DNA from: a phage
Length of the DNA stretch: 64,000 nucleotides
Assembly: GCA_024614665.1 (NCBI GenBank)
Contig: GCA_024614665.1_4861.1
Direction: 5' to 3' (one strand)
The position numbers and the translations under genes were made by a program. The notes below the pieces were generated by a model. The model was not told the DNA's origin. It saw nothing but the letters and a program-made list of their open reading frames with translations, and did no database searches. Every line of letters starts with the position of its first letter. The stretch's first letter is position 1. Shown here in pieces: positions 46,579-59,153 of the stretch.

Positions 46579-46652
46579 ACGGACTGCCTACGGGCGGGTA
46601 GTCCGTAGGTAAACCGCCCTTCCGTTATTGGGAGGGCGGTCTCCGTTTTATT
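46579..46652 (+). terminator. tandem hairpins + T-run between fibre genes (terminator/attenuator)
   Basis: acggact...agtccgt stem then accgccct/agggcggt stem followed by CTCCGTTTTATT. Confidence 0.4.
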
Positions 46653-46672
46653 ACAGATTAGGAGTGTTTGCA

Positions 46673-49600
46673 ATGCCGAGAGAAGATGCGGCGCAGTTTA
46701 ACGGTACGCTCAGTACCGCTACTTACCCGAACCGTTATTCGGCGGTCATTCCCGTCGAAGCACCGTTCTATCGCATCGGGTTAACGTTAACCGTTACCGA
46801 TAAAACAACCGGAACCAAACGCAAGTTAATAGAAGGTCTTGATTATTTCTTAGGACATTACTTCCAGGAATTAGCCGAGGCTGAGAACGATGCAATATAC
46901 GGCAGCATAATGCTGCTGAACGCCACAGAGGTAGAATACGAGTTGTTGTCGGTTGGTCGACAGTATCGCATCCCTGCTTCTGAAATCGGCAAGTATCTGG
47001 TTAAGACAGATATGAAAGACCCGCGTAACTGCGATTGGTCTGAGCTGATGAAATATCCGCCGATTATCTCGCCAATCGACCCGCCAAAAGACCTCGAAGA
47101 AGCGATTCTTCGCGATGAAATCGTAAAGGCGTTGGAAGATATCCGTCTGGGTATTTTAGAGCGCGCCCACGAGCTGGATGAGGCTTTTGCCGAAGTTACC
47201 GATTTGATTTATCAGAACGGTAAGCAGGTGTTTGAAGATGAGATGTATCAGCACCACCTGGTTAAAAACGCACACGGTTACACCTGCGGTGATATTGGCG
47301 CTCTCCCGGTACTCGGCAAAGCCGTAGATGCGACTAAGGCATTCGGACGTACCCTGGCAGAGCTAGTGACGTTAATGTCTACCAGCGGCATCCAACAGAA
47401 ACACGTTGACATGCTTCTGGATAATACCCTGGGTGATTTACTGGGCCGTATGCGTGTTCTGAATAACGACGCGATTACGTTCCAAACAACGTCTGGTCAC
47501 GTTATCAGCATGAAGGGTGAGAAGTTCATCATCACCTCGACAAAACCGCTGGTATTAAAAGCTGACCAGGATAACAACGAACCGGGTATCGCTACGGAGT
47601 TCAGTGCTGGTCTGAACACGCTTTGGGTTCACTCGGGTAAAGCAGGTGACAAGTGGGGCGATTATGATGCGGGTGTGCTTGCACCTGTGTATAATAGCGT
47701 GTATCTCGTTACACCGGATATGGTTAAGATGTACTTGACCTCGGTGAAGATACTTCCAGCAAACGCCTACTTCAAGTCCAGCGACACGTTGAAGATTTAT
47801 GGCTCTGGTAAAGAAACAAACAAAGTTTACATGAATGCGGAGCTGCCTGCAGCAACCACAACTGTGCAGGGTTTGTTTGCGATTACTAACCTTTCGGCGT
47901 CCGCTGCATCGTCCACAGCGATTTCCCAAAAAGCTGTTACTGACTTGAAGAACAAACTCGACGGATATGTGGACGACACGTATACGGTCAACGGCAAAGG
48001 GTTTGTGTTAGACGAAAACGGTCAAATGCATTTAACCTTAACCGCGTCGGATTTCGGTATTGAGAAGATGAACAATACCGGGCCGCTGGAGAAACCGGTT
48101 ACTAATGCGTTGCGCACCGTGCTATCAGGCAAGGCACTCTCAACACACACCCACACCATTGCTGATCTCGATGACGTGCCGTACGCATCCACATCTGTTA
48201 CAGGTTTGGCTAAACTGTGGGATGCTATTGACACCACAACAGATAAGATGGTTACTGCCCGCCAGGGTTTCTTGCTCGAACAGAAGATCGGTACACTGAA
48301 CGACAAGATTGCTACGTTGTTGCCAGCATGGACCGTTGGCGGATCGTCGTACGGTAACAATAACTTCTTGCCTATACCTGTCCAGGGGAACTACGAAGGG
48401 TACACCAAAAACCAAACTTGGCAAAAAGGACTGGCGCGTTACGAGGCTGGTAAGGTTTACTCGTTGCGTAATGGTTCCAACGGTAACGCCCCTGCTGACT
48501 GGGCTATCTATTACGCCTATGCTGATGTGTCGCCAAGCAATACGCTGGAAAATATGCAGCAGACGTCCGTACGTTATCACCCCGCTGGAATGTCGGCGTA
48601 TCCTGGGGTGAATCTGGTTGCTATTCTGATTACCGGTACAGATGCAATGATCTGCTTAGGCAGTGACGGTGCGTATTACCTGGTCATCTTTGACGGCACC
48701 ATTGACCATGCAAAACATCATCGTGTTGTTAAAGTTTACTTGGGCGATTACCGAAATGGTAACGCGGCCGGTGTGATTACAACCGCACCATGGGTTGCCG
48801 ATCCATCAACAAACGATTTGATCGTTTGCAACGATCGGGTTTATCTGCTCCGTACTGTGCTTACCTCCGGTGACTATTTCGTGAGTATGCGTAGCATCGC
48901 ACTCGACGAACTTAATCTGGGTGGTAGCAACACGTTTGTGGCGGATGTGTTAACGGGTGGGATGTTAACGTCGGGAGATAATATCTACTTGCGTCAGGGT
49001 CAGAAACGTTCTGATACAGATGTGTTGGTAGCGCCAGTAACACAAATCTACGCAGACGCATCGGCGAAGTGGAATAGTGCGCGAAATTTCGTCCATGGTC
49101 CGGAATGTAATCACGCGATTGCTGTGGATGGGCTGAACTTTCGTGTTGGTTTAACGCCAACAGTCTGGTTTGCTTCTACTACAGGGCAAACTATTAACTT
49201 TAAACAATGGGTGTCAAGCTTTGTTGTTGATTGCAGTTCAATGACGGTAACGCTGGAAGGGGCTGATCGATTCCCTATTGTGGCTGATCTTACCGCGGTT
49301 CGTTATAACGGTGGTGCTGAGATTGGGATTCCGAGCTGGAAGTGGGGCGAAGGTCAAGCTAATAACCGAACCTTTGCAACATCGCAAGACAAGTATATTG
49401 TTTCGCAAGGACTTTCAGGCGATCGCGACCTAATGCCTTATGTCAGGATTACAACGTTAGATGACGGTGTGAGTTGGTACGAGTACCTGTCGTGCGACTA
49501 CAACTTCACTGCCAGAAGTTTTAGTGCGGTAATGTTAAACCAAGGACGTGGTTCTATCTACGAGCTGGGTATGGCGTATCCGCTGACTCTGGGAGCGAAT

Positions 49601-51856
49601 TCCAGACTTATCTGGTTGTCACAACCGCGTACCCGTTTGGCAATTGAAGTTGAGTTTGATCCGAACACCACTTACTCAGGTAAGGCGGGGTATGGCCCAA
49701 CTAACAATCGTCGTGTAGTAGATTCTATCACGTATGAGAATCTGTCGCAGATGTGCCACATTGTTACACCGGCGTCGCCTGGTACAGAGTTAAACGGCTG
49801 GTATTGCACAGGACCAGAAACATTCCCTTACCACAACGTTTCCGGCACTTTCACGATTCATGCCGATCGATTGACGCTGTCACAAGCTGAATGGAATAAG
49901 ATGAAGCAGATGATCATCGACGGAGCACCGGCAGGCGCTGCGAATGGTTATGCTTCGGAATTTATCCTTGCTGCAAATAACGCAGGAAAGGCATTGTTTT
50001 CCGTTTGGTTCATCGGCATCGGAACGGCCACACCGCTCACATTAGCACAAGTAGCATGTACACGTACTGTGAACAATGTTAACGTGTTAGATATCTACTA
50101 CTTTACACTGAAACCAACAATCAGCAACGGGCAGGTAACATTCCCCGCAGCGATATTGGCACTGTTTGACTTCTATAACAACCTCGTCTATGGCTTGAAC
50201 TATGCTACGTTGGGAGAGATAACGGGAGGAAAAACACGCCGGCCGGGACAACCTACCATGGTGTCGGTAGATGGTACGCAGTTCGGGTTGTATCTTCCAC
50301 ACACGTTAACCTTGCGCCAAATTGGCGACTTGGGTGCGCTTAACTACGGTGTCGGTCTTACGCTGTCTAATGGTACCTGGACGCGTTCTTCTGCCCCGCG
50401 CGGCATTGGACGCATGGCACCATCACACACTCCAGTCAGCCCAGCTTATCTGGCTCATCGTGATCAGGTGATGCTACACAACTCATCTCTCGACTACGTC
50501 TATTGTGGTGGTATCGCAATGTCGTCGAGTGATTTTGTCGCGGCTCCTAATTTTAGTGGCCCGACTGAATCGGTCGTCATTGCTGGTGTGGAAACAGCCG
50601 AAGGTTGGCTGGTATATGTGACTGAGGAAGTTAACCTGCGTTTCGGCTCGAGCACTTATAAGCTGCCTACGTGGTATATTGACCTCAGCGCAGCGTTTCC
50701 AACAAACCATCAGAACCGGACATTCTACCTGCACGCCAAGGTAGAAAATGGTACACCGAAGTACGTAATGGACGTGATTCAACATCCAGACACTGAAACG
50801 GAACTCTATATCGGGTATGTTAAAACGGGCTCGTCGCGAGTCGTCGAGACTAATGTCGAACATGTTAAGCGCTTGGGTGCGGTGAAACAGCTGTTGGAAC
50901 ACGCAGCAGTTGAGAATAAGCACGATGTGGAAGTGGGAAGGGATGCAGCAACGGGCAGACTGGCACCATTACGTAAAGAAGCGATGGGTCCTTTGTCTAT
51001 CGATGGCAAGAAAGGCTATCTGGATAGTCAGTTGCTTTATACCGTATCTGACGCACAGCGTCGCGGTAAAGCGATGGTGTCCAAACGTTTCGAAGGCTTG
51101 AAAACCTTGCCGGTGTTTACTCAGGCAAACAAGTCGGGGGCGTTTTGGAAACATCCTACAACAATTGCGACGGTAACGGCCGATGAGAACGGTGAAGCGG
51201 CATCGTTGGGAATGGAGTGGGTAGGTATTCCAACGCCCGCCTTCTCTCCGACCACAACATACGCGATGGTGATGATACAAAGTAAATTCGTCGTCCCAGG
51301 TACACCTGGAGTGGAAACAACCTTTAATGTCAACATCGCCCCATGGGAGACGGTAGAAATGTTTTTCTACAACGTCGAGGCGGAAGGTAAGGATGTTAAC
51401 ATTGATGAAAGTTCAGAACTGTTAACGCCGAGACCACATACCGTGTATCACGAACAGCACTCTCTGCCCGCAGGCGTGCCATGTACGTTTACTTTCGTTG
51501 GTGTGTTGAGTTCCTCAGCGCTTGAGATGGCCAACCAGCATATTTGCTCTTGGCTTTTCACGGACGCGGGGGGACTACCAATCACCACCGATCTTTCGGA
51601 TAGTAAGATTCAAATCTTTCCAGCGGCGGGAGAGACCAACGGCACACCAGTTGTTTTTAACAGCCGTAGCTACACGTTTGTGGATGTGGCGGGTGCAATT
51701 CCGGTTGTTACCACGGGCGCTCAGGGTTTATACCCACCACCGATCGTGGCGTGGGATGGCGATGATCTTACGTTAACGATTGCGCACGATTGGGTGAACG
51801 AGAGAGGATGGCAACAGGCTAATGTTATCCAGGTCAATCTTATGTTCCGTACCTAA
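46673..51856 (+). CDS. large tail fibre / receptor-binding-like structural protein 3 (about 1727 aa)
   Basis: Start at ATG with AGGAG RBS (track ORF begins at upstream TTG); N-terminus APFYRIGLTLTV...LIEGLDYFLGHY. Confidence 0.55.
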   Translation: MPREDAAQFNGTLSTATYPNRYSAVIPVEAPFYRIGLTLTVTDKTTGTKRKLIEGLDYFLGHYFQELAEAENDAIYGSIMLLNATEVEYELLSVGRQYRIPASEIGKYLVKTDMKDPRNCDWSELMKYPPIISPIDPPKDLEEAILRDEIVKALEDIRLGILERAHELDEAFAEVTDLIYQNGKQVFEDEMYQHHLVKNAHGYTCGDIGALPVLGKAVDATKAFGRTLAELVTLMSTSGIQQKHVDMLLDNTLGDLLGRMRVLNNDAITFQTTSGHVISMKGEKFIITSTKPLVLKADQDNNEPGIATEFSAGLNTLWVHSGKAGDKWGDYDAGVLAPVYNSVYLVTPDMVKMYLTSVKILPANAYFKSSDTLKIYGSGKETNKVYMNAELPAATTTVQGLFAITNLSASAASSTAISQKAVTDLKNKLDGYVDDTYTVNGKGFVLDENGQMHLTLTASDFGIEKMNNTGPLEKPVTNALRTVLSGKALSTHTHTIADLDDVPYASTSVTGLAKLWDAIDTTTDKMVTARQGFLLEQKIGTLNDKIATLLPAWTVGGSSYGNNNFLPIPVQGNYEGYTKNQTWQKGLARYEAGKVYSLRNGSNGNAPADWAIYYAYADVSPSNTLENMQQTSVRYHPAGMSAYPGVNLVAILITGTDAMICLGSDGAYYLVIFDGTIDHAKHHRVVKVYLGDYRNGNAAGVITTAPWVADPSTNDLIVCNDRVYLLRTVLTSGDYFVSMRSIALDELNLGGSNTFVADVLTGGMLTSGDNIYLRQGQKRSDTDVLVAPVTQIYADASAKWNSARNFVHGPECNHAIAVDGLNFRVGLTPTVWFASTTGQTINFKQWVSSFVVDCSSMTVTLEGADRFPIVADLTAVRYNGGAEIGIPSWKWGEGQANNRTFATSQDKYIVSQGLSGDRDLMPYVRITTLDDGVSWYEYLSCDYNFTARSFSAVMLNQGRGSIYELGMAYPLTLGANSRLIWLSQPRTRLAIEVEFDPNTTYSGKAGYGPTNNRRVVDSITYENLSQMCHIVTPASPGTELNGWYCTGPETFPYHNVSGTFTIHADRLTLSQAEWNKMKQMIIDGAPAGAANGYASEFILAANNAGKALFSVWFIGIGTATPLTLAQVACTRTVNNVNVLDIYYFTLKPTISNGQVTFPAAILALFDFYNNLVYGLNYATLGEITGGKTRRPGQPTMVSVDGTQFGLYLPHTLTLRQIGDLGALNYGVGLTLSNGTWTRSSAPRGIGRMAPSHTPVSPAYLAHRDQVMLHNSSLDYVYCGGIAMSSSDFVAAPNFSGPTESVVIAGVETAEGWLVYVTEEVNLRFGSSTYKLPTWYIDLSAAFPTNHQNRTFYLHAKVENGTPKYVMDVIQHPDTETELYIGYVKTGSSRVVETNVEHVKRLGAVKQLLEHAAVENKHDVEVGRDAATGRLAPLRKEAMGPLSIDGKKGYLDSQLLYTVSDAQRRGKAMVSKRFEGLKTLPVFTQANKSGAFWKHPTTIATVTADENGEAASLGMEWVGIPTPAFSPTTTYAMVMIQSKFVVPGTPGVETTFNVNIAPWETVEMFFYNVEAEGKDVNIDESSELLTPRPHTVYHEQHSLPAGVPCTFTFVGVLSSSALEMANQHICSWLFTDAGGLPITTDLSDSKIQIFPAAGETNGTPVVFNSRSYTFVDVAGAIPVVTTGAQGLYPPPIVAWDGDDLTLTIAHDWVNERGWQQANVIQVNLMFRT

Positions 51857-51903
51857 CAGATAGCGCTATGGGGCAAGGAAGCCCCAATCAAAGGAGTTTG
51901 GCA

Positions 51904-53106
51904 ATGGCCGAAATCATTTATCAGTACCCGCTCGACCTTACCGGGACATTAACGTCGAACGCCGTTACGCGGCGTATTACGTTAGGTTCTGGTAAAGTTA
52001 ACCGGGCTTTTGCATTTCCTGACGGAGCTTTCTACGCGGATACTTTCCGCTTAGCGGCTGCGAACAAACCGGGTGTCTACCCGTACAAACGTGGTACAGA
52101 CTACGAGCTGATTTTTGCACATACTGCATATCAGAAAATGACCAAGAACCGCGAAGTGGTCATGGGTGTGGTGGTAACTAACTCGGCCATTCCTACAGAT
52201 ATCGAAGTCTCTGCGCAAGTCGTTGGTGGTTTTCAGTCTGCGAACGTCGAAGGCATCCGACAAGCGATTGCGTCGTTGAAAATTGAAGACCGCGTGGTGG
52301 ACTTCAAGGATCTTCGGAACGTACCCGATACGTTCCCGTCCGCACCGACGTATAAAGACCTTGGCGATATCTACGGTTTTGAGTACATCATTACCGTGCT
52401 CGCGGGGATTAAAGATGCGATTAACTCCGGCTCTGCAGTACAGCTGGAAGAAATTAAAGGTATTCTGGACGGTCTGAAAAACGACTTCCTCGATGCCTTA
52501 AATACCCACATCAACGCCGAAGGTAACGTACACAATCTCGACATTCATCAGGTTAATGGCCTGACGGAGACGGAGATTCGTGCTCTGATTCAAAGTGTAC
52601 AGACTGCCATTGACGCCACTATCAGAGATATCGGCGACTTAAGAGCAGCAGACACGGCGTTGGGGCAACGCATCGATGCAGTTGTGGCTTCGTTAGCCGC
52701 GTGGAACGACCAGCTTAATGTAGTTGCTCAAAATTACCAGAAAATGTCGTTAGCATTAGCTAACCTTAATTCTCTGGTGTTGCAATTACAGAAGAAGGTT
52801 AATGATCTTCAGTCTGCGCTGAATGAAACAAATCAGCGTGTCACGGATCTTGAGAATCAAGGCAAAGACTTCCAACAGCAAATTGATAACCTGCAAGGAC
52901 AAATCAACAGTCTTAAAACTCAGGTTGTAAACAACACCAACGCAATTTCGCAGGCAAACCAGAATCTGGCGAACCATGCGGCTGCGGATAACCCACACCC
53001 GAATTACCTCCATAAACAGTATGGCGGTGTTGTGCAGGCTGCTGTTCACGTCAACAACAACCTCACCTCGCGCGACGATGTTCAAGCTGAAGCGGGTACT
53101 AAGTAA
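51904..53106 (+). CDS. fibre-like protein with shared N-terminal domain and C-terminal coiled coil (about 400 aa)
   Basis: Start at ATG with AAAGGAG RBS; N-terminus GAFYADTF...KRGTDYELIFAH; heptad-like Q/N/L-rich C-terminus. Confidence 0.5.
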   Translation: MAEIIYQYPLDLTGTLTSNAVTRRITLGSGKVNRAFAFPDGAFYADTFRLAAANKPGVYPYKRGTDYELIFAHTAYQKMTKNREVVMGVVVTNSAIPTDIEVSAQVVGGFQSANVEGIRQAIASLKIEDRVVDFKDLRNVPDTFPSAPTYKDLGDIYGFEYIITVLAGIKDAINSGSAVQLEEIKGILDGLKNDFLDALNTHINAEGNVHNLDIHQVNGLTETEIRALIQSVQTAIDATIRDIGDLRAADTALGQRIDAVVASLAAWNDQLNVVAQNYQKMSLALANLNSLVLQLQKKVNDLQSALNETNQRVTDLENQGKDFQQQIDNLQGQINSLKTQVVNNTNAISQANQNLANHAAADNPHPNYLHKQYGGVVQAAVHVNNNLTSRDDVQAEAGTK

Positions 53107-53171: not shown

Positions 53172-53564
53172 ATGGCGATATCTATTAAAGACGTCAGAAA
53201 CCGCGTCCAGATAGTCGAAGCTAACATGGCGACAGGCCCCCGTATCGACGCGCAAGTGGCCTCTAAAGCCCATAACGCGGCAGACCGATTTGGGGGTTGG
53301 ACGAAAACACAGCTAGATTGCGGCGGGACATGTTCTTGGACGTGCTCTAACGGTTGCTCGCATGGCTGTTCGAGCTGTTCAGGAAGCTGTTCTGCTTCTT
53401 GTATCGGTAGCTGTTCTTCGACGTGTGGCGGTAACTGTTCTGGTTGCTCTGGTTGTTCTGGTGGTTGCAGTAGTAGCTGTACCGGTAACTGCACAGGTGG
53501 TTGCGGTGGCTCTTGTTCCGCAAACTGCTCCGGGGCCTGCTCCGGCGGCTGTTCAGGTCGCTAA
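53172..53564 (+). CDS. Cys-rich leader+core peptide A (130 aa), candidate RiPP precursor
   Basis: AAGGAAG RBS; leader-like N-terminus (ISIKDVRNRVQIVEAN); core has about 21 Cys at Cxxx spacing. Confidence 0.6.
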   Translation: MAISIKDVRNRVQIVEANMATGPRIDAQVASKAHNAADRFGGWTKTQLDCGGTCSWTCSNGCSHGCSSCSGSCSASCIGSCSSTCGGNCSGCSGCSGGCSSSCTGNCTGGCGGSCSANCSGACSGGCSGR

Positions 53565-53574
53565 GGGGGATTAA

Positions 53575-53979
53575 ATGGCAATTGGATTAAAAGAACTGAA
53601 TAACCGATTAAACACGATCGATGCAAACGCTCTAAAGAATACCACGAATGTGCAAAACTACATTCGCAATAAAGCTACGAATAACGCCGACTTGTTCGCA
53701 GGTCAAGGCCGTTCGCACTATGACTGTGGTGGCACATGCTCTTTTAGTTGCTCGAGTTGTTCTGGCGGATGTACTGGGTCTGCGACAGGTGGTTGTGGGT
53801 CGACTTGTTCGGCAAACTGTGTATCAGGCTGTAGCAGCAGCTGCACGGGCTGTAGCTCTTCGTGCTCTGGTGGTTGTAGCGGCACGTGCACAGGCAGCTG
53901 TTCTGGGGGTTGTGGTAAATCCTGCTCCGCAAACTGCTCAGGTGCGTGCTCTGGTGGTTGTTCAGGTCCTAACTCCTAA
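53575..53979 (+). CDS. Cys-rich leader+core peptide B (134 aa), candidate RiPP precursor
   Basis: AAGGGGGA RBS; leader (IGLKELNNRLNTIDAN); core about 20 Cys; C-terminus near-identical to peptide A (SCSANCSGACSGGCSG). Confidence 0.6.
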   Translation: MAIGLKELNNRLNTIDANALKNTTNVQNYIRNKATNNADLFAGQGRSHYDCGGTCSFSCSSCSGGCTGSATGGCGSTCSANCVSGCSSSCTGCSSSCSGGCSGTCTGSCSGGCGKSCSANCSGACSGGCSGPNS

Positions 53980-53994
53980 CTGACGGAGGCTTAT

Positions 53995-54201
53995 GTGATC
54001 AGTCTCAAGACTATTCGAAACCGTCTCGTTACGGCAGAAGGCTACATTACAACCGCGCAGGCAAACAACTATATCGCTAACCAGGGCACCGTGTCAACCA
54101 CGAACAACCTGGCTGGTTTACCGCTTTCTCACTATAACTGTAATGGTGGGTGTAGCTGGTCCTGCAGCGGAAGCTGTAGCCGTGGAGCGGGGAATCGATA
54201 A
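53995..54201 (+). CDS. short Cys-containing leader+core peptide C (68 aa), candidate RiPP precursor
   Basis: GTG start 5 nt after GACGGAGG; leader (ISLKTIRNRLVTAEGY); short core CNGGCSWSCSGSCS. Confidence 0.45.
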   Translation: MISLKTIRNRLVTAEGYITTAQANNYIANQGTVSTTNNLAGLPLSHYNCNGGCSWSCSGSCSRGAGNR

Positions 54202-54223: not shown

Positions 54224-55111
54224 ATGAAAAACGATTTGCATCTTGCGTATAAAACCACATTCAACCACCCGCTGCATCTATCTTCCCCAGATTCGGTGCG
54301 TGCACACCTCGCTGACAAAGTCAGACTGATTGCACAGATTCCTGGTGAGTGGCCAAAGGTTCGTGGTCGCTTCTTGACCGACAAGAAGAACTACACCGTA
54401 GAAAATACGTTTAAGATCCGTGATATGGTTGCAGAGGCCATCGTTATCTTTAACGGCGATGGTAACTCTCGCGGCGTGTTGGTTGACGGTAAGTATTTCT
54501 TCAGTGAAGGGATTCTGAACAACAGTGTCGATTTAGAACTGATGTTTACACCGTTTGACGAACTCGAAGCAAAACCGATGGCGCGCCGTTGGTGGAGTCC
54601 GGACTATCTGGGCTCGTTCCCTTACTACTTTGTACTGGTACCTGCCGATACGGAAACGTATTTCGACACCGAACCGTACATCGATATCGAGGGATATAAA
54701 GAACTCGGCATCACCCGTTTAGCGGACATGATGGCGTATAGCTATAAGTTCGTGTGGGATAAAAAGCGTTCTGTCTGGTATGCGCTGACTGACGATTTTG
54801 AAATCACCAAACGTATTCGTAAGCCGTGGATGCAACACCTGGTTCAAACCCGATATGGGGATTACCCGGCGACAGAAGCGGATTTGAGTAAGCTGGTAAG
54901 CTTCCTCTTAACGAAGGTGGATTTAACGAAAGAAGAAGCAGAAGCTGTTTCTGAGATTCGTAGTCGTTCGGTTACGTTGGCCGATTTGAAACGCTTGAAC
55001 GAAAGACATGCCGACCTGAACAAAATTTTAGCTGCCTATCACGACCCGATGTTACTGGTGCCTGGCGCTAATGTAGACGAAGATCCTTTATTCGCCATTG
55101 ATTATATTTAA
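54224..55111 (+). CDS. hypothetical protein in Cys-peptide/radical SAM cassette (295 aa)
   Basis: Between the peptide genes and the radical SAM genes; no motif recognised. Confidence 0.5.
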   Translation: MKNDLHLAYKTTFNHPLHLSSPDSVRAHLADKVRLIAQIPGEWPKVRGRFLTDKKNYTVENTFKIRDMVAEAIVIFNGDGNSRGVLVDGKYFFSEGILNNSVDLELMFTPFDELEAKPMARRWWSPDYLGSFPYYFVLVPADTETYFDTEPYIDIEGYKELGITRLADMMAYSYKFVWDKKRSVWYALTDDFEITKRIRKPWMQHLVQTRYGDYPATEADLSKLVSFLLTKVDLTKEEAEAVSEIRSRSVTLADLKRLNERHADLNKILAAYHDPMLLVPGANVDEDPLFAIDYI

Positions 55112-55133: not shown

Positions 55134-56048
55134 ATGACAGATCAAGTAGAATCCAGGATCTCGTCTGAACTGTACGACAAACCGTCAATTCTGTCGGTTG
55201 TCGCAACTTCTAAGTGTAACTTAGACTGTAGCTTCTGTGGAGGGGCTTATTACATGGATAGAGAAGATACTTCTCGTGAGTTTCAACGTGAAGAGATTCT
55301 CTCGATTTTAGAGAAGAATCCGGATATCGGTGAAATTCATTGGACGGGCGGTGAGCCGCTGTTAGCGCAGCGCAAGATTGAAGACTTCGTGAACGAGTTG
55401 AAGGAGTCTCATCCGAACCTCCGTCATCACATGTACACCAACGGTTTAAAGATGCGTAAATCACATCTGCCGTTGCTGAAACAGTTCGACCTTATCTTTG
55501 TGTCCATTGACGGCTACAAGAAGTCGGAACGTCCGTTTATGAACTTTGTAAACGGTGGTAATCACGAAGCGCTGGAAGTGCTGTACGAGCTGGACAACTA
55601 TTACACCTGGGGTGTGATGACGCGTGACCAGTTAGGTGATAAACGCTGGTACGAAGATTTCATCGAGCTGCACCGAGCAATCTATCATTACCGTCCAGGT
55701 GGTATGTCGTTGCTGTTTGATGCGATGATGCCGAAACCGTTATCGCCAGACCACGTCATGAACTTCATGTACGGGTATTGGAAAATACTCGACAATATCG
55801 AACGCCTTAACATGCAGAACGATTCTGAGTGTGGGCTTGCGATCAGTAAAATGTTCGATACTGAGTGCAACACGTGCAGTGAAGTGCTGTGGCTTAACGC
55901 CGACGGTACGCAGGAGCAAATTCAGAACGCCCCAGAGATATTGGAAGTCGGCTGTAATCGCCTGGCGCGTTCTATCGGCGTTGATGCGTATAACTACATC
56001 AACCGTGTAATTTCTGCTAAGCGTAAACGGGCGGCGAACAATGAGTAA
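55134..56048 (+). CDS. radical SAM enzyme 1 (about 304 aa)
   Basis: CNLDCSFC (CxxxCxxC) near N-terminus and IHWTGGEPLL; extra C-terminal Cys; ATG with GGAG RBS (track ORF begins at upstream TTG). Confidence 0.7.
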   Translation: MTDQVESRISSELYDKPSILSVVATSKCNLDCSFCGGAYYMDREDTSREFQREEILSILEKNPDIGEIHWTGGEPLLAQRKIEDFVNELKESHPNLRHHMYTNGLKMRKSHLPLLKQFDLIFVSIDGYKKSERPFMNFVNGGNHEALEVLYELDNYYTWGVMTRDQLGDKRWYEDFIELHRAIYHYRPGGMSLLFDAMMPKPLSPDHVMNFMYGYWKILDNIERLNMQNDSECGLAISKMFDTECNTCSEVLWLNADGTQEQIQNAPEILEVGCNRLARSIGVDAYNYINRVISAKRKRAANNE

Positions 56049-57369
56049 CAGCGAACAGCAAATCCAGTACACACCACGCACGTATCAGGTTGTGACTAAC
56101 CTGTCATGTAATCTGGACTGCGAATACTGCTACGAGCGTAAATATCCTCGTAACAACAAAGTAGCAGACGTGATTGATTTTATCCACGCTTGTTTCGAGC
56201 GTGATAAAGATATCCCGAACGTTGAGGTCATCATCGATATCATCGGTGGTGAGCCGTTCATGCAGCCTAAACTTCTTTTGGCGGCCTTTGAAACCGCAGA
56301 GAAGTTATGCGCAGAACACAATCGCCCGTATATGTTCAGTATCTCCACGAACGGTACACTTCTGGACCGTCCGCTGAACAAAGAAATTATCGAGCGCTGG
56401 AAAGACAAACTGTCTATTGGGGTCTCCATCGATGGTTTACCTGAAGTCCATGACAAATATCGTATCTTTACCACGACGCGTGAAGGGTCGTACGAAGCTG
56501 CGGTACGCGGTTACAATTATCTGAAGAGTGTTGGCATCGCTGAATTAGGCGTAAAGGCGACGTTTACGATCGATACATTGCCGCACTATGCCGCCAGCAT
56601 GAAATCGTTAATTGACATGTCCGGCGGTGGTACCATTTCTGGTAACGTAACGTACGAAGATATCCTGCCGCGCCATATGGCGTTGGATATCGCGAACCAG
56701 ATGATGGACGTGATGGACTACTGGATTGAGAAGGGTCTGCACACCAACCCGCGTAACACGATTACACACATCATCCCGGATGGCCTGAACTTTATGGCAA
56801 CTTGGGACCCGGATTGGCGTGACAAACTCTTACATGACGACTCTGTTCGTCTCGACCCAGAACGCCTGAAACCGTACTGCGGTACGTTGACGCACATGAC
56901 CTGTCTCGGCTTTGATCGCAAGATTTACGGTTGTAACCGTTTCATGTCCACGGTAACTTCCCGTTCTGCTGTAGCAGAACTGGTCGGTCGTGAGTTTGTG
57001 AGCCTGGACGGTGGTAAGTTGTTAGAAGAGATTCAAACACAGTACACCAACTACCCAGAAACCTGTTTAGGGTGTCCGATGAAACACAGTTGCGGTAGCT
57101 GCGCAGCAGCATCGTACGAAAACGGTGAAGGTACACTGGAAGACCGTAAAGCGTATCACGCCGAGCGTCGTCAGTGTGGTTGGACTACTGCGAAGCTGAT
57201 GGCGGCGGAATATTGGTATCAGAAAACTGGTACGACCCGCGCATCAGATTTGCATGATAAATCCATGTGCTATTGTTCACGTTGTGTACGCCAACGTGCT
57301 GAAGCAGAAAAATTACAAAACGGAGCCCAGAATGAAGTCAATACTGATTCACAATTTTACGAAGCGTAA
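56041..57369 (+). CDS. radical SAM enzyme 2 with SPASM-like C-terminal Cys cluster (442 aa)
   Basis: CNLDCEYC and IIGGEPFMQP; C-terminal CGTLTHMTC...CLGCPMKHSCGSC...CYCSRC; ATGAGTAA overlap with enzyme 1. Confidence 0.7.
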   Translation: MSNSEQQIQYTPRTYQVVTNLSCNLDCEYCYERKYPRNNKVADVIDFIHACFERDKDIPNVEVIIDIIGGEPFMQPKLLLAAFETAEKLCAEHNRPYMFSISTNGTLLDRPLNKEIIERWKDKLSIGVSIDGLPEVHDKYRIFTTTREGSYEAAVRGYNYLKSVGIAELGVKATFTIDTLPHYAASMKSLIDMSGGGTISGNVTYEDILPRHMALDIANQMMDVMDYWIEKGLHTNPRNTITHIIPDGLNFMATWDPDWRDKLLHDDSVRLDPERLKPYCGTLTHMTCLGFDRKIYGCNRFMSTVTSRSAVAELVGREFVSLDGGKLLEEIQTQYTNYPETCLGCPMKHSCGSCAAASYENGEGTLEDRKAYHAERRQCGWTTAKLMAAEYWYQKTGTTRASDLHDKSMCYCSRCVRQRAEAEKLQNGAQNEVNTDSQFYEA

Positions 57370-57898
57370 ACTGCACTTGGTCGATCGCTTCCTGCGCAAA
57401 AGCAAGCTGTACAATGTGCACGCAATTGTGGCAGGGGAAGACTTCACTGATGAAATCCAAAGCCTGTTGATTAAATACGGGCTGAATGTGATGATCCCGG
57501 TCTACTGCGTTGAGAAAGGACACGAGTCTGTCGCGGAAATCGAAAAGCGCAACCCCGGCTTTGAGAAGCGACTGCTTGCATACCCACGCCACAAAATCGA
57601 ACTGCTACGTCACTCTATTGATGAAGCCAGTCCTGAAAGTTTAGTGGCTTTGGGCTTGTCTTTCCCGCGGATGCGTATTCGTAACTTACGCTCCAATAAC
57701 CCGGTTGACGCTTATTACACAGAGCGTCAAATCTTCGAAGAACACCTGCTCCCGCAGTTGGAAGAAGAAGAGCAACACAACATTTCTCTGTTGTGGGCCG
57801 GTAACCTCGATCAGGACTTCCAGATGCTGGACTTCGGTTTGTTGTTAGAACTTGGCCTGATTGAGGAGGACGAATGTCTGTTACTGACAAAAGCTTAA
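57332..57898 (+). CDS. hypothetical protein in cassette (about 188 aa)
   Basis: Start at ATG with GGAG RBS (MKSILIHNF); overlaps end of radical SAM 2. Confidence 0.45.
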   Translation: MKSILIHNFTKRKLHLVDRFLRKSKLYNVHAIVAGEDFTDEIQSLLIKYGLNVMIPVYCVEKGHESVAEIEKRNPGFEKRLLAYPRHKIELLRHSIDEASPESLVALGLSFPRMRIRNLRSNNPVDAYYTERQIFEEHLLPQLEEEEQHNISLLWAGNLDQDFQMLDFGLLLELGLIEEDECLLLTKA

Positions 57899-58545
57899 CG
57901 AACGAAGAGATCCGCGCCCGTTATTTCCAGCGTGATTTGCCGATTGATCGTCACGGTAATTTCATGGAACGAATCGGTGCGCAGGATCAGGGCCGTACAG
58001 GCTTTTGCGCTCTGCTCCATTATCATCTCATCGAAGGGATGTCTGATAAAGAAGCCCTGGCACGCATGAAGCTGTATGAGATGTCGGAGATTGAAGCTAA
58101 CTTCACATTGAAACGCACGAAAGAGTTTATTGCTAATGTGCTGGAGATTGACCTCGACGAAATTCGCGGGAATCTGAAATCTACCGCACGTTACATTTAC
58201 GAAGACGTGCAGAAGATGCTGTTGGAGCTTGACCACCGCTACGAAGATGAGCGTCATGGTTATATCGAGTTTGAAGGTAGTCACTTTCAAGCCGATGAAT
58301 CGTCGCGTACCATCCTCGGTCAATACATTCAGGCAGATACCGCACCAGAATACTGGCTCGATACGCTGAATACTAAGCACAGTCCGTTTACAGTAGCCCA
58401 ATGTAAAGCGTTGCTGGCCGCTATTGTTGCACGTGACCAAGTGTTGCACTCAGCAATGGCAGATAACAAACGCCATATCCGTGAGTTAGCTGAAAAGCGC
58501 GATTACACTGGATTAAAAACATTGTCCGAATCTCTCGGCATTTAA
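57874..58545 (+). CDS. hypothetical protein in cassette (223 aa)
   Basis: GGAGGA RBS; followed by bidirectional terminator. Confidence 0.45.
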   Translation: MSVTDKSLTNEEIRARYFQRDLPIDRHGNFMERIGAQDQGRTGFCALLHYHLIEGMSDKEALARMKLYEMSEIEANFTLKRTKEFIANVLEIDLDEIRGNLKSTARYIYEDVQKMLLELDHRYEDERHGYIEFEGSHFQADESSRTILGQYIQADTAPEYWLDTLNTKHSPFTVAQCKALLAAIVARDQVLHSAMADNKRHIRELAEKRDYTGLKTLSESLGI

Positions 58546-58547
58546 GC

Positions 58548-58602
58548 AAAGAAAATAAAGGCCCTACCTCCCTTCGGGGAGGTAGGTACCTTATTTTATT
58601 TC
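58548..58602. terminator. bidirectional intrinsic terminator
   Basis: A-rich run, stem cctacctccc/gggaggtagg, T-run CCTTATTTTATTTC. Confidence 0.6.
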
Positions 58603-58625: not shown

Positions 58626-59153
58626 TTAAACGAATCCGTCCAGTTCACCGTTGGTGGTGCTCAGGTCAGTTTTAACGATTGGCTGCGTTACAGTATAAAC
58701 TGCAGGGCTGCCAGGTCGGTATTTAATGTGGCCTGATTTCACCTTAACAGTGATGACTTTCTCACCACTGCTGCCGTCCACGCGTTTAATGATGAGTTCA
58801 GACAATGCAAACGCATCTTCCGTTTTACCGGCGGCAATTAGATCTGCGTTGACAAAAGCAAGCACTTCTTCATCGGTATCCCATTCTGCCTGGTCAGCGG
58901 TAACTGCCTTCTCACCGATGATGTCCGATAAATTGAGGCGGGTATAATGCAGCTCTTTCACGCCAGTAAAGTTAGCGGATTCCGCGGTGGCGGTGATGGT
59001 GAGATTGGTGTTGCGAGTGTCTCCAGAATCTGCTGGTGAATAGTCAGCAACAGCGCCGAATGTAACGTCAGCAGCAGTTAACGGACTAGGCAGTCCGCTG
59101 TTTGCAGCATTAAACAGCGCGACGAGTTGGTCTTTTGCAGAGATGACTGCCAT
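58626..59153 (-). CDS. hypothetical protein, possibly structural (175 aa)
   Basis: Intact ORF; Thr/Ala/Val-rich composition; function unknown. Confidence 0.45.
   Translation of the reverse strand: MAVISAKDQLVALFNAANSGLPSPLTAADVTFGAVADYSPADSGDTRNTNLTITATAESANFTGVKELHYTRLNLSDIIGEKAVTADQAEWDTDEEVLAFVNADLIAAGKTEDAFALSELIIKRVDGSSGEKVITVKVKSGHIKYRPGSPAVYTVTQPIVKTDLSTTNGELDGFV

What the first reader, a model, noticed from the sequence alone, without database searches (positions are those of the whole stretch)
55134..57369. Two translationally coupled, paralogous radical SAM enzymes
Seen: both ORFs begin their cluster with the same local motif (T/S-x-x-CNLDC-x-[FY]-C) and both have a GGEP motif about 50 residues downstream, so they look like paralogues; the second ORF overlaps the first by ATGAGTAA. 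The second is 442 aa with a SPASM-like C-terminal Cys cluster; the first is about 304 aa with fewer C-terminal Cys (possibly twitch-like). Inference: two maturases acting sequentially or on different precursors.
Basis: partly seen in the sequence, partly recalled or inferred. Interest (0 to 1): 0.7.

Follow-up and report, generated by a model that had tools for sequence, protein, structure and literature searches.

The report
Phage radical-SAM pair modifying cysteine-rich fibre proteins
Two overlapping genes in a giant Salmonella phage encode a conserved pair of radical SAM enzymes that, with a third unknown protein, most likely chemically cross-link cysteine-rich repeat tails of tail-fibre proteins, three of which lie just upstream but are missing or mis-framed in the SPN3US reference annotation.

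Summary
Window 55134-56048 (304 aa) and 56041-57369 (442 aa) are two radical SAM genes overlapping by ATGAGTAA. The window is a SPN3US-like jumbo phage, and these genes are gp164 and gp163.

"Paralogous" is true only at superfamily level. The two share just the catalytic core (21-26% identity). Each is far closer to its counterpart in distant phages than to its neighbour.

The pair belongs to a conserved four-part module inside tail-fibre gene blocks:
- a protein ending in a Cys-X3 repeat tract
- a gp165-like protein with no known fold relative
- a short radical SAM with three extra conserved Cys (rSAM1)
- a SPASM radical SAM with eight extra conserved Cys (rSAM2), related to CteB, PapB and TIGR04115

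In 80 viral loci, rSAM1-like and gp165-like genes occur in exactly the same 17, all carrying the rSAM2 clade. One locus fuses both enzymes into a single protein.

Here the substrates are three small Cys-rich ORFs at 53172-54201. They are proven coding by codon-position statistics, yet SPN3US records omit or mis-frame them.

The most likely function is repeated thioether-type cross-linking of a fibre-associated protein; the chemistry is inferred, not shown. I rate it a new variant of a known kind, of moderately high interest.

The parts
53172..53564 (+). Cys-rich protein A (130 aa): a 49-aa N-terminal region, then a 78-aa CXXX tract with 21 Cys that ends 3 residues before the stop. Predicted substrate.
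   Evidence: Twenty Cys columns are invariant over 7 genomes. Substitutions by codon position are 0.33/0.24/0.63. It matches phrog_6085 at E=9e-40 and TIGR04114 at 18.5 bits against a cutoff of 20. It is not annotated in SPN3US.
53575..53979 (+). Cys-rich protein B (134 aa, 20 Cys). Predicted substrate. SPN3US records instead call an out-of-frame ORF here (53648-53983, gp166).
   Evidence: It matches phrog_6085 at E=3e-41.
53995..54201 (+). Cys-rich protein C (68 aa, GTG start, 4 Cys). It has the same N-terminal region and the same C-x-G-x-C-S-W entry motif but only a minimal tract. Predicted substrate or partner chain.
   Evidence: (phrog_6085, E=3e-24).
54224..55111 (+). gp165-like protein (295 aa), an obligate companion of the enzyme pair with an unknown fold. 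Proposed substrate-handling or assembly factor.
55134..56048 (+). rSAM1 (gp164, 304 aa): a radical SAM enzyme with CX3CX2C (C28/C32/C35) plus three invariant C-terminal Cys (C245/C248/C274), twitch-like.
   Evidence: The SPN3US records start it at an internal Met (window 55253), which loses the cluster motif.
56041..56048 (+). ATGAGTAA overlap: the start codon of rSAM2 lies inside the last codons and stop of rSAM1 (translational coupling).
   Evidence: Junctions are conserved at -11 to +13 nt, or the genes are fused, in relatives.
56041..57369 (+). rSAM2 (gp163, 442 aa): a SPASM-type radical SAM with eight conserved C-terminal Cys and no N-terminal RRE domain. It is the sister clade of TIGR04115 and PapB.
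57332..57898 (+). gp162 (188 aa from the conserved Met), overlapping the end of rSAM2 by 38 nt. It is specific to the SPN3US-like clade and its role is unknown.
   Evidence: (phrog_7988 covers residues 27-213 of the longer ORF).
57874..58545 (+). gp161 (223 aa, DUF4376), overlapping gp162 by 25 nt. It is the last gene of the block.
58563..58586 (.). Strong bidirectional terminator-like hairpin (10-bp stem, 7 GC pairs) that closes the gene block.
46628..53106 (+). Context: gp168 (about 1730-1742 aa depending on start, baseplate/tail-fibre candidate) and gp167 (412-aa ORF; the SPN3US annotation calls about 400 aa, virion protein), immediately upstream on the same strand.
   Evidence: Virion and tail assignments come from PMC5105663 and PMC5694885.

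Best explanation
The two overlapping genes encode a co-inherited pair of radical SAM enzymes. Together with the upstream gp165-like protein they form a maturation machine for Cys-X3 repeat tracts of tail-fibre or fibre-associated proteins. In this phage the substrates are the three small Cys-rich proteins A, B and C, encoded immediately upstream in the same tightly packed block.

Shown:
- the genes, motifs and overlap
- the reality of the Cys-rich genes
- the four-gene module and its strict co-occurrence across distant phages
- a natural fusion of the two enzymes
- fusion of the homologous Cys tract to the C-terminus of bona fide tail-fibre proteins in other phages

Inferred:
- rSAM2 has a SPASM domain with two auxiliary clusters, and its closest characterised relatives are the thioether-forming CteB and PapB. 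It uses SAM-derived radicals to link Cys sulfur to a carbon of a nearby residue, and repeats this at most of the roughly 20 repeats.
- rSAM1, with one auxiliary-cluster site, performs a second modification or handles a subset of sites on the same chain.
- gp165 presents the substrate, replacing the missing RRE domain.
- The product is a heavily cross-linked, protease-resistant structural element of the fibre apparatus rather than a secreted peptide.
For: Enzyme identity:
- Both pass Pfam Radical_SAM.
- rSAM2 scores best against TIGR04115 (125.6 bits) and PapB (113.6 bits).
- Its family profile aligns to CteB residues 103-430, through the SPASM Cys motifs, at E=4e-37, and eight C-terminal Cys are conserved.

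Substrates:
- A, B and C are conserved in seven genomes from six phage genera, in the Cys reading frame.
- Substitutions concentrate at codon position 3, and TGT/TGC alternate at invariant Cys columns.
- No other long Cys runs exist in the 64-kb window.

Module:
- Distant loci L008-L012 and L024-L030 repeat the same set: a fibre protein with a C-terminal CXXX tract, a gp165-like gene, an rSAM1-like gene and an rSAM2-like gene.
- Among 80 viral loci, rSAM1-like (16 separate plus 1 fused) and gp165-like (17) occur in exactly the same 17 loci. These are exactly the loci with a tier-A rSAM2.
- L029 fuses both enzymes into one 686-aa protein.

Fibre link:
- The N-terminal parts of the distant CXXX proteins are tail-fibre domains (E=1e-55 and 3e-32), while their C-terminal tracts match phrog_6085, the A/B/C family.
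- The window block sits between the virion fibre genes gp167-170 and a tail assembly chaperone.
- The enzymes and gp165 are absent from the SPN3US virion proteome tables, as expected for assembly factors.
Against: - No chemistry was observed. The thioether assignment rests on homology to CteB and PapB at low identity, and rSAM2 fails the curated cutoffs of both TIGR04115 (125.6 against 350) and PapB (113.6 against 340).
- Pfam's SPASM model does not fire on rSAM2.
- Nothing shows that A, B or C are in the virion. They were absent from the search database, and their tracts contain 0-1 Lys/Arg.
- In this clade the Cys proteins are small stand-alone chains with a 48-aa leader-like N-terminus. That also fits a classical RiPP precursor.
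- The geometry of the three rSAM1 Cys could not be checked, because no model coordinates were available.
Confidence: 0.7

Rival explanations
1. A classical phage-encoded RiPP. A, B and C are leader-plus-core precursors. The two enzymes install thioethers, the leader is then cut off, and a free ranthipeptide- or sactipeptide-like product acts on the host or on competitors.
For: The precursors are small, with a conserved 48-aa N-terminal region and a Gly-Gly-like motif before the tract (FGGW, FAGQG). The nearest characterised enzymes are RiPP maturases.
Against: No protease or exporter was detected in the block. In distant members of the same module the 'leader' is a 200-450-aa tail-fibre protein, and the tract is its C-terminus. 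The block lies in a tail-fibre gene cluster.
Confidence: 0.15
2. Two paralogous maturases, each dedicated to a different precursor.
For: Three precursor genes and two enzymes are present. PHROGs places both enzymes in one family, phrog_1802.
Against: Loci with a single CXXX substrate keep both enzymes (L008, L012, L024-L030). L029 fuses them. The two families are homologous only over the core.
Confidence: 0.1
3. The enzymes are not protein maturases. They perform nucleotide or cofactor chemistry (viperin-, QueE- or MoaA-like), and the Cys-rich proteins are unrelated metal-binding, metallothionein-like proteins.
For: Both enzymes give weak N-terminal hits to viperin, QueE, MoaA and NrdG models. 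The tracts are about 27% Cys.
Against: Those hits cover only the generic first ~110 residues and fall far below the cutoffs. Full-length structural and profile matches are to peptide maturases. The enzymes co-occur strictly with CXXX tracts: 77 of 80 viral loci.
Confidence: 0.05

Closest known systems
TIGR04115 / TIGR04114 (NCBIfam 'radical SAM peptide maturase, CXXX-repeat target family' and its Cys-rich repeat target; Pfam PF27846 tSAM_targ_Cxxx_rpt)
   Same: A SPASM radical SAM sits next to a protein with a long Cys-X3 repeat tract. The window's rSAM2 scores best against this model. Bona fide members also sit in phage contigs beside CXXX proteins (63 tier-B viral loci, 60 of them with a CXXX ORF; three tested scored 400-497 bits). 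One such locus examined (L058) is a distal-tail gene block.
   Different: The window's rSAM2 scores 125.6 bits against a cutoff of 350, so it belongs to a sister clade. TIGR04115-type loci have one enzyme and no rSAM1-like or gp165-like gene, whereas this clade always has both. As far as I could find, the family is a bioinformatic prediction with no published chemistry. My recollection that it stems from Haft & Basu 2011 could not be checked.
CteB / PapB thioether-forming radical SAM-SPASM maturases (ranthipeptides; PDB 5wgg)
   Same: They share the core plus a SPASM domain with two auxiliary clusters. The profile alignment to CteB has E=4e-37, and the PapB model covers 22-357 of rSAM2. They also make repeated Cys-derived cross-links in short-period motifs; the example of PapB acting on CSANDX repeats comes from my own knowledge.
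   Different: rSAM2 has no N-terminal RRE domain, since the alignment starts at CteB residue 103. It falls below the PapB cutoff (113.6 against 340). Its substrate is a 78-residue tract with about 20 Cys and no acidic acceptor residues. A second radical SAM and a gp165-like partner are obligatory.
HXS system (HxsB/HxsC radical SAM pair + HxsD + HxS-repeat protein HxsA; PMC13128918)
   Same: The architecture matches: one SPASM-type and one shorter radical SAM, a non-enzymatic accessory protein, and a protein substrate with short-period repeats. There are weak model hits of rSAM2 to HxsB (75 bits) and rSAM1 to HxsC (45 bits).
   Different: Both hits are far below the cutoffs (370 and 267.9). The repeat chemistry differs (Cys-X3 against His-X-Ser). 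This system is phage-encoded in a tail-fibre block, not a bacterial defence system. gp165 is unrelated to HxsD as far as tested: no NCBIfam or PADLOC hit.
QhpD/QhpC (a radical SAM-SPASM enzyme that installs Cys-Asp/Glu thioethers in a structural enzyme subunit)
   Same: It is a precedent for a SPASM enzyme that cross-links a protein which stays part of a larger assembly rather than becoming a free peptide (own knowledge). Bona fide TIGR04115 members tested here (tier B) hit the QhpD model TIGR03906 at 108-121 bits.
   Different: The homology is only distant. The window's rSAM2 scores 55.5 bits against a cutoff of 453. The substrate and biological context are different.

Membership tests
Radical SAM superfamily (PF04055) | A CX3CX2C [4Fe-4S] motif, a GGE SAM-binding motif, and a Pfam score above the gathering threshold. 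| tested here: met
   rSAM1 scores 58.8 bits and rSAM2 55.6 bits against 29.5. CNLDCSFC / CNLDCEYC and GGEP are read in the translations and are invariant in the families.
SPASM-domain radical SAM (rSAM2) | A C-terminal 7-8 Cys signature (CX9-15GX4C ... CX2CX5CX3C ... C) that binds two auxiliary clusters. | tested here: met
   Eight Cys are conserved (C280, C288, C298, C342, C345, C351, C354, C379). The profile aligns through the SPASM Cys motifs of CteB and anSME. Caveat: Pfam's SPASM model PF13186 gives no hit even at E<=10. Cluster binding itself is not testable here.
Twitch-type radical SAM (rSAM1) | A truncated SPASM domain that binds a single auxiliary [4Fe-4S] cluster. | tested here: inconclusive
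TIGR04115 (CXXX-repeat-target maturase) | A score at or above the curated cutoff of 350 bits. | tested here: not met
   The window's rSAM2 scores 125.6 bits. Tier-A relatives score 155-157 bits. True members in tier-B loci score 400-497 bits.
TIGR04115 (CXXX-repeat-target maturase) | Adjacency to a protein with Cys-X3 repeats (TIGR04114 / PF27846). | tested here: met
   A, B and C lie 0.9-2 kb upstream on the same strand. TIGR04114 scores are 18.5 and 17.1 bits against a cutoff of 20. In the 80 viral loci retrieved with the rSAM2-family alignment (17 of this clade, 63 scoring like TIGR04115), 77 have such an ORF. A tier-A homologue carries PF27846.
PapB family ranthipeptide maturase (NF047865) | A score at or above 340 bits, and a substrate with Cys plus an acidic acceptor (CSANDX-type). 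| tested here: not met
   The score is 113.6 bits. The tracts contain no Asp or Glu.
HxsB/HxsC paired radical SAM system | HxsB and HxsC model scores above the cutoffs, an HxS-repeat substrate and HxsD. | tested here: not met
   The scores are 75.1 against 370 and 45 against 267.9. No HxS repeats or HxsD-like protein are present. The resemblance is in architecture only.
Canonical RiPP gene cluster | Precursor(s) with a leader and core, a maturase with or accompanied by an RRE, and a leader protease and/or exporter. | tested here: inconclusive
   Precursor-like genes are present. There is no RRE in either enzyme and no RRE-like fold in gp165. No protease or transporter family was detected in the block.
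Phage tail-fibre protein (for A/B/C) | Presence in the virion, or homology to a fibre domain. | tested here: inconclusive
   The tract family phrog_6085 forms the C-terminus of proteins whose N-termini are tail-fibre domains in other phages. A, B and C themselves carry no fibre domain. They could not have been detected in the published virion proteome.

The most novel reading that the evidence does not exclude
Radical SAM enzymes post-translationally cross-link virion structural proteins. Tail fibres or fibre tips of many phages (jumbo enterobacterial phages, viral contigs from metagenomes, a Deferribacter prophage-like region) would end in a ladder of about 10-90 enzymatically installed Cys-derived cross-links. 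In this clade that ladder would be made by an obligate two-enzyme-plus-gp165 machine. This would be the first radical-SAM-dependent modification of a phage structural protein, and a new material-like protein architecture.
Probability: 0.4. Interest if true: 0.85.

Novelty: new variant of a known kind. Interest (0 to 1): 0.68.

Why it matters
If the inference holds, phages use radical SAM chemistry, normally associated with peptide antibiotics and cofactors, to harden or shape the receptor-binding apparatus of the virion.

- This would add a new class of modification to phage structural biology.
- It would give a function to a predicted but uncharacterised enzyme/target family (TIGR04115/TIGR04114) and to its two-enzyme sister clade.
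- It would supply a genetically tractable model: SPN3US has an amber-mutant system in Salmonella.
- The substrates are short enough (130 aa) for direct mass spectrometry and NMR.

Practically, it shows that the reference annotation of a model jumbo phage omits or mis-frames three conserved genes and truncates a fourth. That is why proteomics could not have detected them.

Tried and rejected
1. Scans of the viral and genome collections with the extended rSAM1-family alignment failed because it is too divergent for pattern design. I used the rSAM2 alignment plus local HMMs instead.

3. The paper I recalled as the origin of the CXXX family (Haft & Basu 2011) is not held. Nine full-text searches found nothing on phage CXXX/radical SAM systems or on SPN3US gp163-165. 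Absence from this library does not prove the absence of prior work.

4. Idea: the invariant Trp in the entry motif C-x-G-x-C-S-W-(S/T)-C is the specific target of rSAM1. Rejected, because a sub-branch (L012, L024, L028, L029) keeps rSAM1 but lacks the Trp.

5. PADLOC gave only generic N-terminal viperin-model hits, with no resemblance to a defence system.

6. Pfam gave no SPASM hit for rSAM2 and no repeat-family hit for A/B/C. This Pfam copy appears to lack PF27846, because a protein annotated with that family elsewhere gave no hit.

7. Sigma-70 promoter scan: fewer sites than in shuffled sequence, so uninformative.

8. Species-representative bacterial and archaeal genomes: none of the 80 best-scoring loci returned carries the four-gene module. 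Only TIGR04115-like single-enzyme loci appear.

9. The large representative-protein HMMER search was not run. The distant module members score too low (25-80 bits) to separate from generic radical SAMs at that database size.
Full report
**What the window is.** The region is 99% identical to SPN3US-like jumbo Salmonella phages of the genus Seoulvirus. In SPN3US numbering the block is:
- gp168, a giant baseplate/tail-fibre candidate
- gp167, a virion protein
- a roughly 1-kb stretch with one dubious ORF call (gp166)
- gp165, gp164 (rSAM1), gp163 (rSAM2), gp162 and gp161

. gp168 is a tail protein and gp167-170 are found in virions (PMC5105663; PMC5694885).

**Checking the observation.**
- ORFs 55134-56048 (304 aa) and 56041-57369 (442 aa) exist and overlap by ATGAGTAA.
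- Both pass Pfam Radical_SAM.
- CNLDCSFC and CNLDCEYC motifs, and GGEP about 40-46 residues later, are present.
- These motifs are generic to SPASM/twitch-type radical SAMs, such as CteB and anSME. They do not argue for specific paralogy.
- rSAM2 has eight conserved C-terminal Cys. Its family profile aligns to CteB residues 103-430, through the SPASM motifs, at E=4e-37. The alignment begins just after CteB's RRE domain.
- rSAM1 has exactly three additional invariant Cys: C245, C248 and C274. They persist in relatives at about 20% identity.

The description is therefore confirmed, including the 'SPASM-like' and 'possibly twitch-like' labels.

**Are they paralogues?** Only in the superfamily sense.
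- BLASTP gives 26% identity over 144 residues (E=1e-4).
- The profile-profile alignment covers only the core, rSAM1 11-206 against rSAM2 6-216, at 21% identity.
- That is no better than rSAM1 against the unrelated maturase TigE (E=9e-12).
- Each enzyme has full-length counterparts in very distant phages. rSAM1 matches a 263-aa *Deferribacter* prophage protein at E=3e-13. rSAM2 matches its 385-aa neighbour at 38% identity, E=1e-89.

**The missing context: substrates.** Immediately upstream lie three small ORFs: A (53172-53564), B (53575-53979) and C (53995-54201).
- Each has a conserved N-terminus of about 48 residues and an entry motif C-x-G-x-C-S-(W/F)-(S/T)-C.
- In A and B a 78-79-residue tract of Cys-X3 (sometimes Cys-X2) repeats follows, made of Cys, Ser, Gly, Thr, Ala and Asn. 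It carries 20-21 Cys and ends 3-5 residues before the stop.
- The genes are real. Seven genomes from six phage genera keep all three in the Cys frame.
- Substitutions fall at codon positions 1/2/3 as 0.33/0.24/0.63. Twenty Cys columns are invariant in each of A and B, and TGT/TGC alternate at 19 and 17 of them.
- No other long Cys runs occur in the window.
- SPN3US records do not annotate A or C. They call an out-of-frame ORF over B, and they start rSAM1 at an internal Met that removes its cluster motif.
- A and B weakly hit TIGR04114, the Cys-rich repeat target model. rSAM2's best NCBIfam hit is the matching maturase TIGR04115.
- All three proteins fall in PHROG 6085, 'unknown function'.

**A conserved four-gene module.** Second-tier rSAM2 relatives (32-39% identity) lie in phage or prophage tail regions. 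Each of these loci contains:
- a protein whose C-terminus is a CXXX tract
- a gp165-like protein
- an rSAM1-like enzyme
- an rSAM2-like enzyme

.

I scanned viral contigs with the rSAM2 alignment and kept 80 loci; 77 have a same-strand CXXX ORF nearby. With extended HMMs, rSAM1-like genes (16 separate plus 1 fused) and gp165-like genes (17) occur in exactly the same 17 loci. These are exactly the loci whose rSAM2 belongs to the window's clade. The other 63 loci have neither; the three of them that I tested are true TIGR04115 members, scoring 400-497 bits.

In L029 the two enzymes are fused into one 686-aa protein. Gene junctions between the pair are always between -11 and +13 nt. The 80 best-scoring loci from species-representative bacterial and archaeal genomes contain only single-enzyme loci.

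**Link to tail fibres.** In the distant module members, the part of the CXXX protein ahead of the tract is a genuine tail-fibre domain. L024 matches tail collar fibre at E=1e-55 and L029 matches tail fibre at E=3e-32. L008 and L011 carry HxH fibre-type repeats. The tracts themselves match PHROG 6085. One TIGR04115-type locus follows Dit and minor-tail genes.

The tract is therefore the C-terminal module of fibre proteins. In the SPN3US-like clade it exists as stand-alone small chains encoded beside the fibre genes.

The published SPN3US virion tables list gp160 and gp167-170 but none of gp161-166. That fits the enzymes and gp165 being assembly factors. A, B and C could not have been found, because they were not in the database and their tracts have 0-1 Lys/Arg.

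**Mechanism (inferred).** rSAM2 most likely installs repeated Cys-derived thioether cross-links, as its nearest characterised relatives CteB and PapB do. rSAM1 adds a second modification or handles a subset of sites on the same chain. The product would be a cross-linked, protease-resistant fibre element.

I put about 0.8 on 'a maturase pair acting on the adjacent CXXX proteins'. I put about 0.45 on thioether chemistry specifically, and about 0.55 on a structural virion role.

**Rivals.**
- A secreted RiPP is disfavoured. No protease or exporter was detected, and the homologous tracts are fused to fibres.
- One enzyme per precursor is disfavoured. Loci with a single substrate keep both enzymes, and one locus fuses them.
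- Non-peptide chemistry has only generic N-terminal hits in its favour.

**Novelty.** A SPASM maturase paired with a Cys-rich repeat target is a known, predicted kind (TIGR04115/TIGR04114). rSAM2 fails that family's cutoff (125.6 against 350). The obligate second radical SAM, the gp165-like partner and the tail-fibre substrates form a distinct variant.

I found no paper describing it. That search covers only the held library.

Noticed in passing
window 53172-54201 and 55134-55253; L001/L013 (SPN3US records): Both the RefSeq and GenBank SPN3US annotations omit Cys-rich ORFs A and C. They call an out-of-frame ORF (gp166/gp100, window 53648-53983) over ORF B. They also start rSAM1 at an internal Met (window 55253), which deletes its CX3CX2C motif.
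   Followed up: yes
L029 6137-8197 (IMGVR_UViG_3300028886_000034, 284-kb contig): The rSAM1-like and rSAM2-like enzymes are fused into a single 686-aa protein with two CX3CX2C motifs, downstream of a 451-aa tail-fibre protein that ends in a CXXX tract.
   Followed up: partly
L011 5087-5992: This module carries a third radical SAM gene (301 aa, 12 Cys) between the rSAM1-like and rSAM2-like genes.
   Followed up: no
L009/L010 3083-3798 and 4583-6001: Small ORFs similar to parts of an rSAM1-like enzyme look like remnants of a duplicated gene. The intact rSAM1-like protein here is 472 aa, with a long C-terminal extension. The CXXX protein (568 aa) follows a T4 gp13-like neck gene.
   Followed up: no
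L035 4756-6198; L094-L096: TIGR04115-type loci encode extreme CXXX proteins. One is 480 aa with a 92-Cys tract. Others are about 660-aa proteins with 58-69-Cys tracts in Termititenax and Margulisiibacteriota genomes. Their entry motif (C-x-G-x-C-S/T-G-L/M-C) differs from the C-S-W motif of the window's clade.
   Followed up: partly
Phage records SPFM1, 6, 7, 8, 9, 10, 12, 14, 15 and 20: These otherwise near-identical phage records give only fragmentary, low-identity matches for gp163-165. This suggests frameshift-type sequence errors in those assemblies.
   Followed up: no
window 58563-58586: A strong bidirectional terminator-like hairpin (10-bp stem, 7 GC pairs) lies between the convergent genes gp161 (+) and gp160 (-). 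gp160 (58626-59153) is an abundant virion protein in the published proteome.
   Followed up: partly
window 57332-58545: gp162 and gp161 (DUF4376) overlap rSAM2 and each other by 38 and 25 nt. They are conserved only in the SPN3US-like clade and not in distant modules, so their relation to the enzyme pair is unknown.
   Followed up: partly
window 53995-54201 and its orthologues in L002, L003 and L006: Protein C keeps the N-terminal region and the C-x-G-x-C-S-W motif. It has only 4 Cys here, and only 2-3 in CR5, Kwan and Phobos. The three paralogous chains might form a heterotrimer; this was not tested.
   Followed up: no
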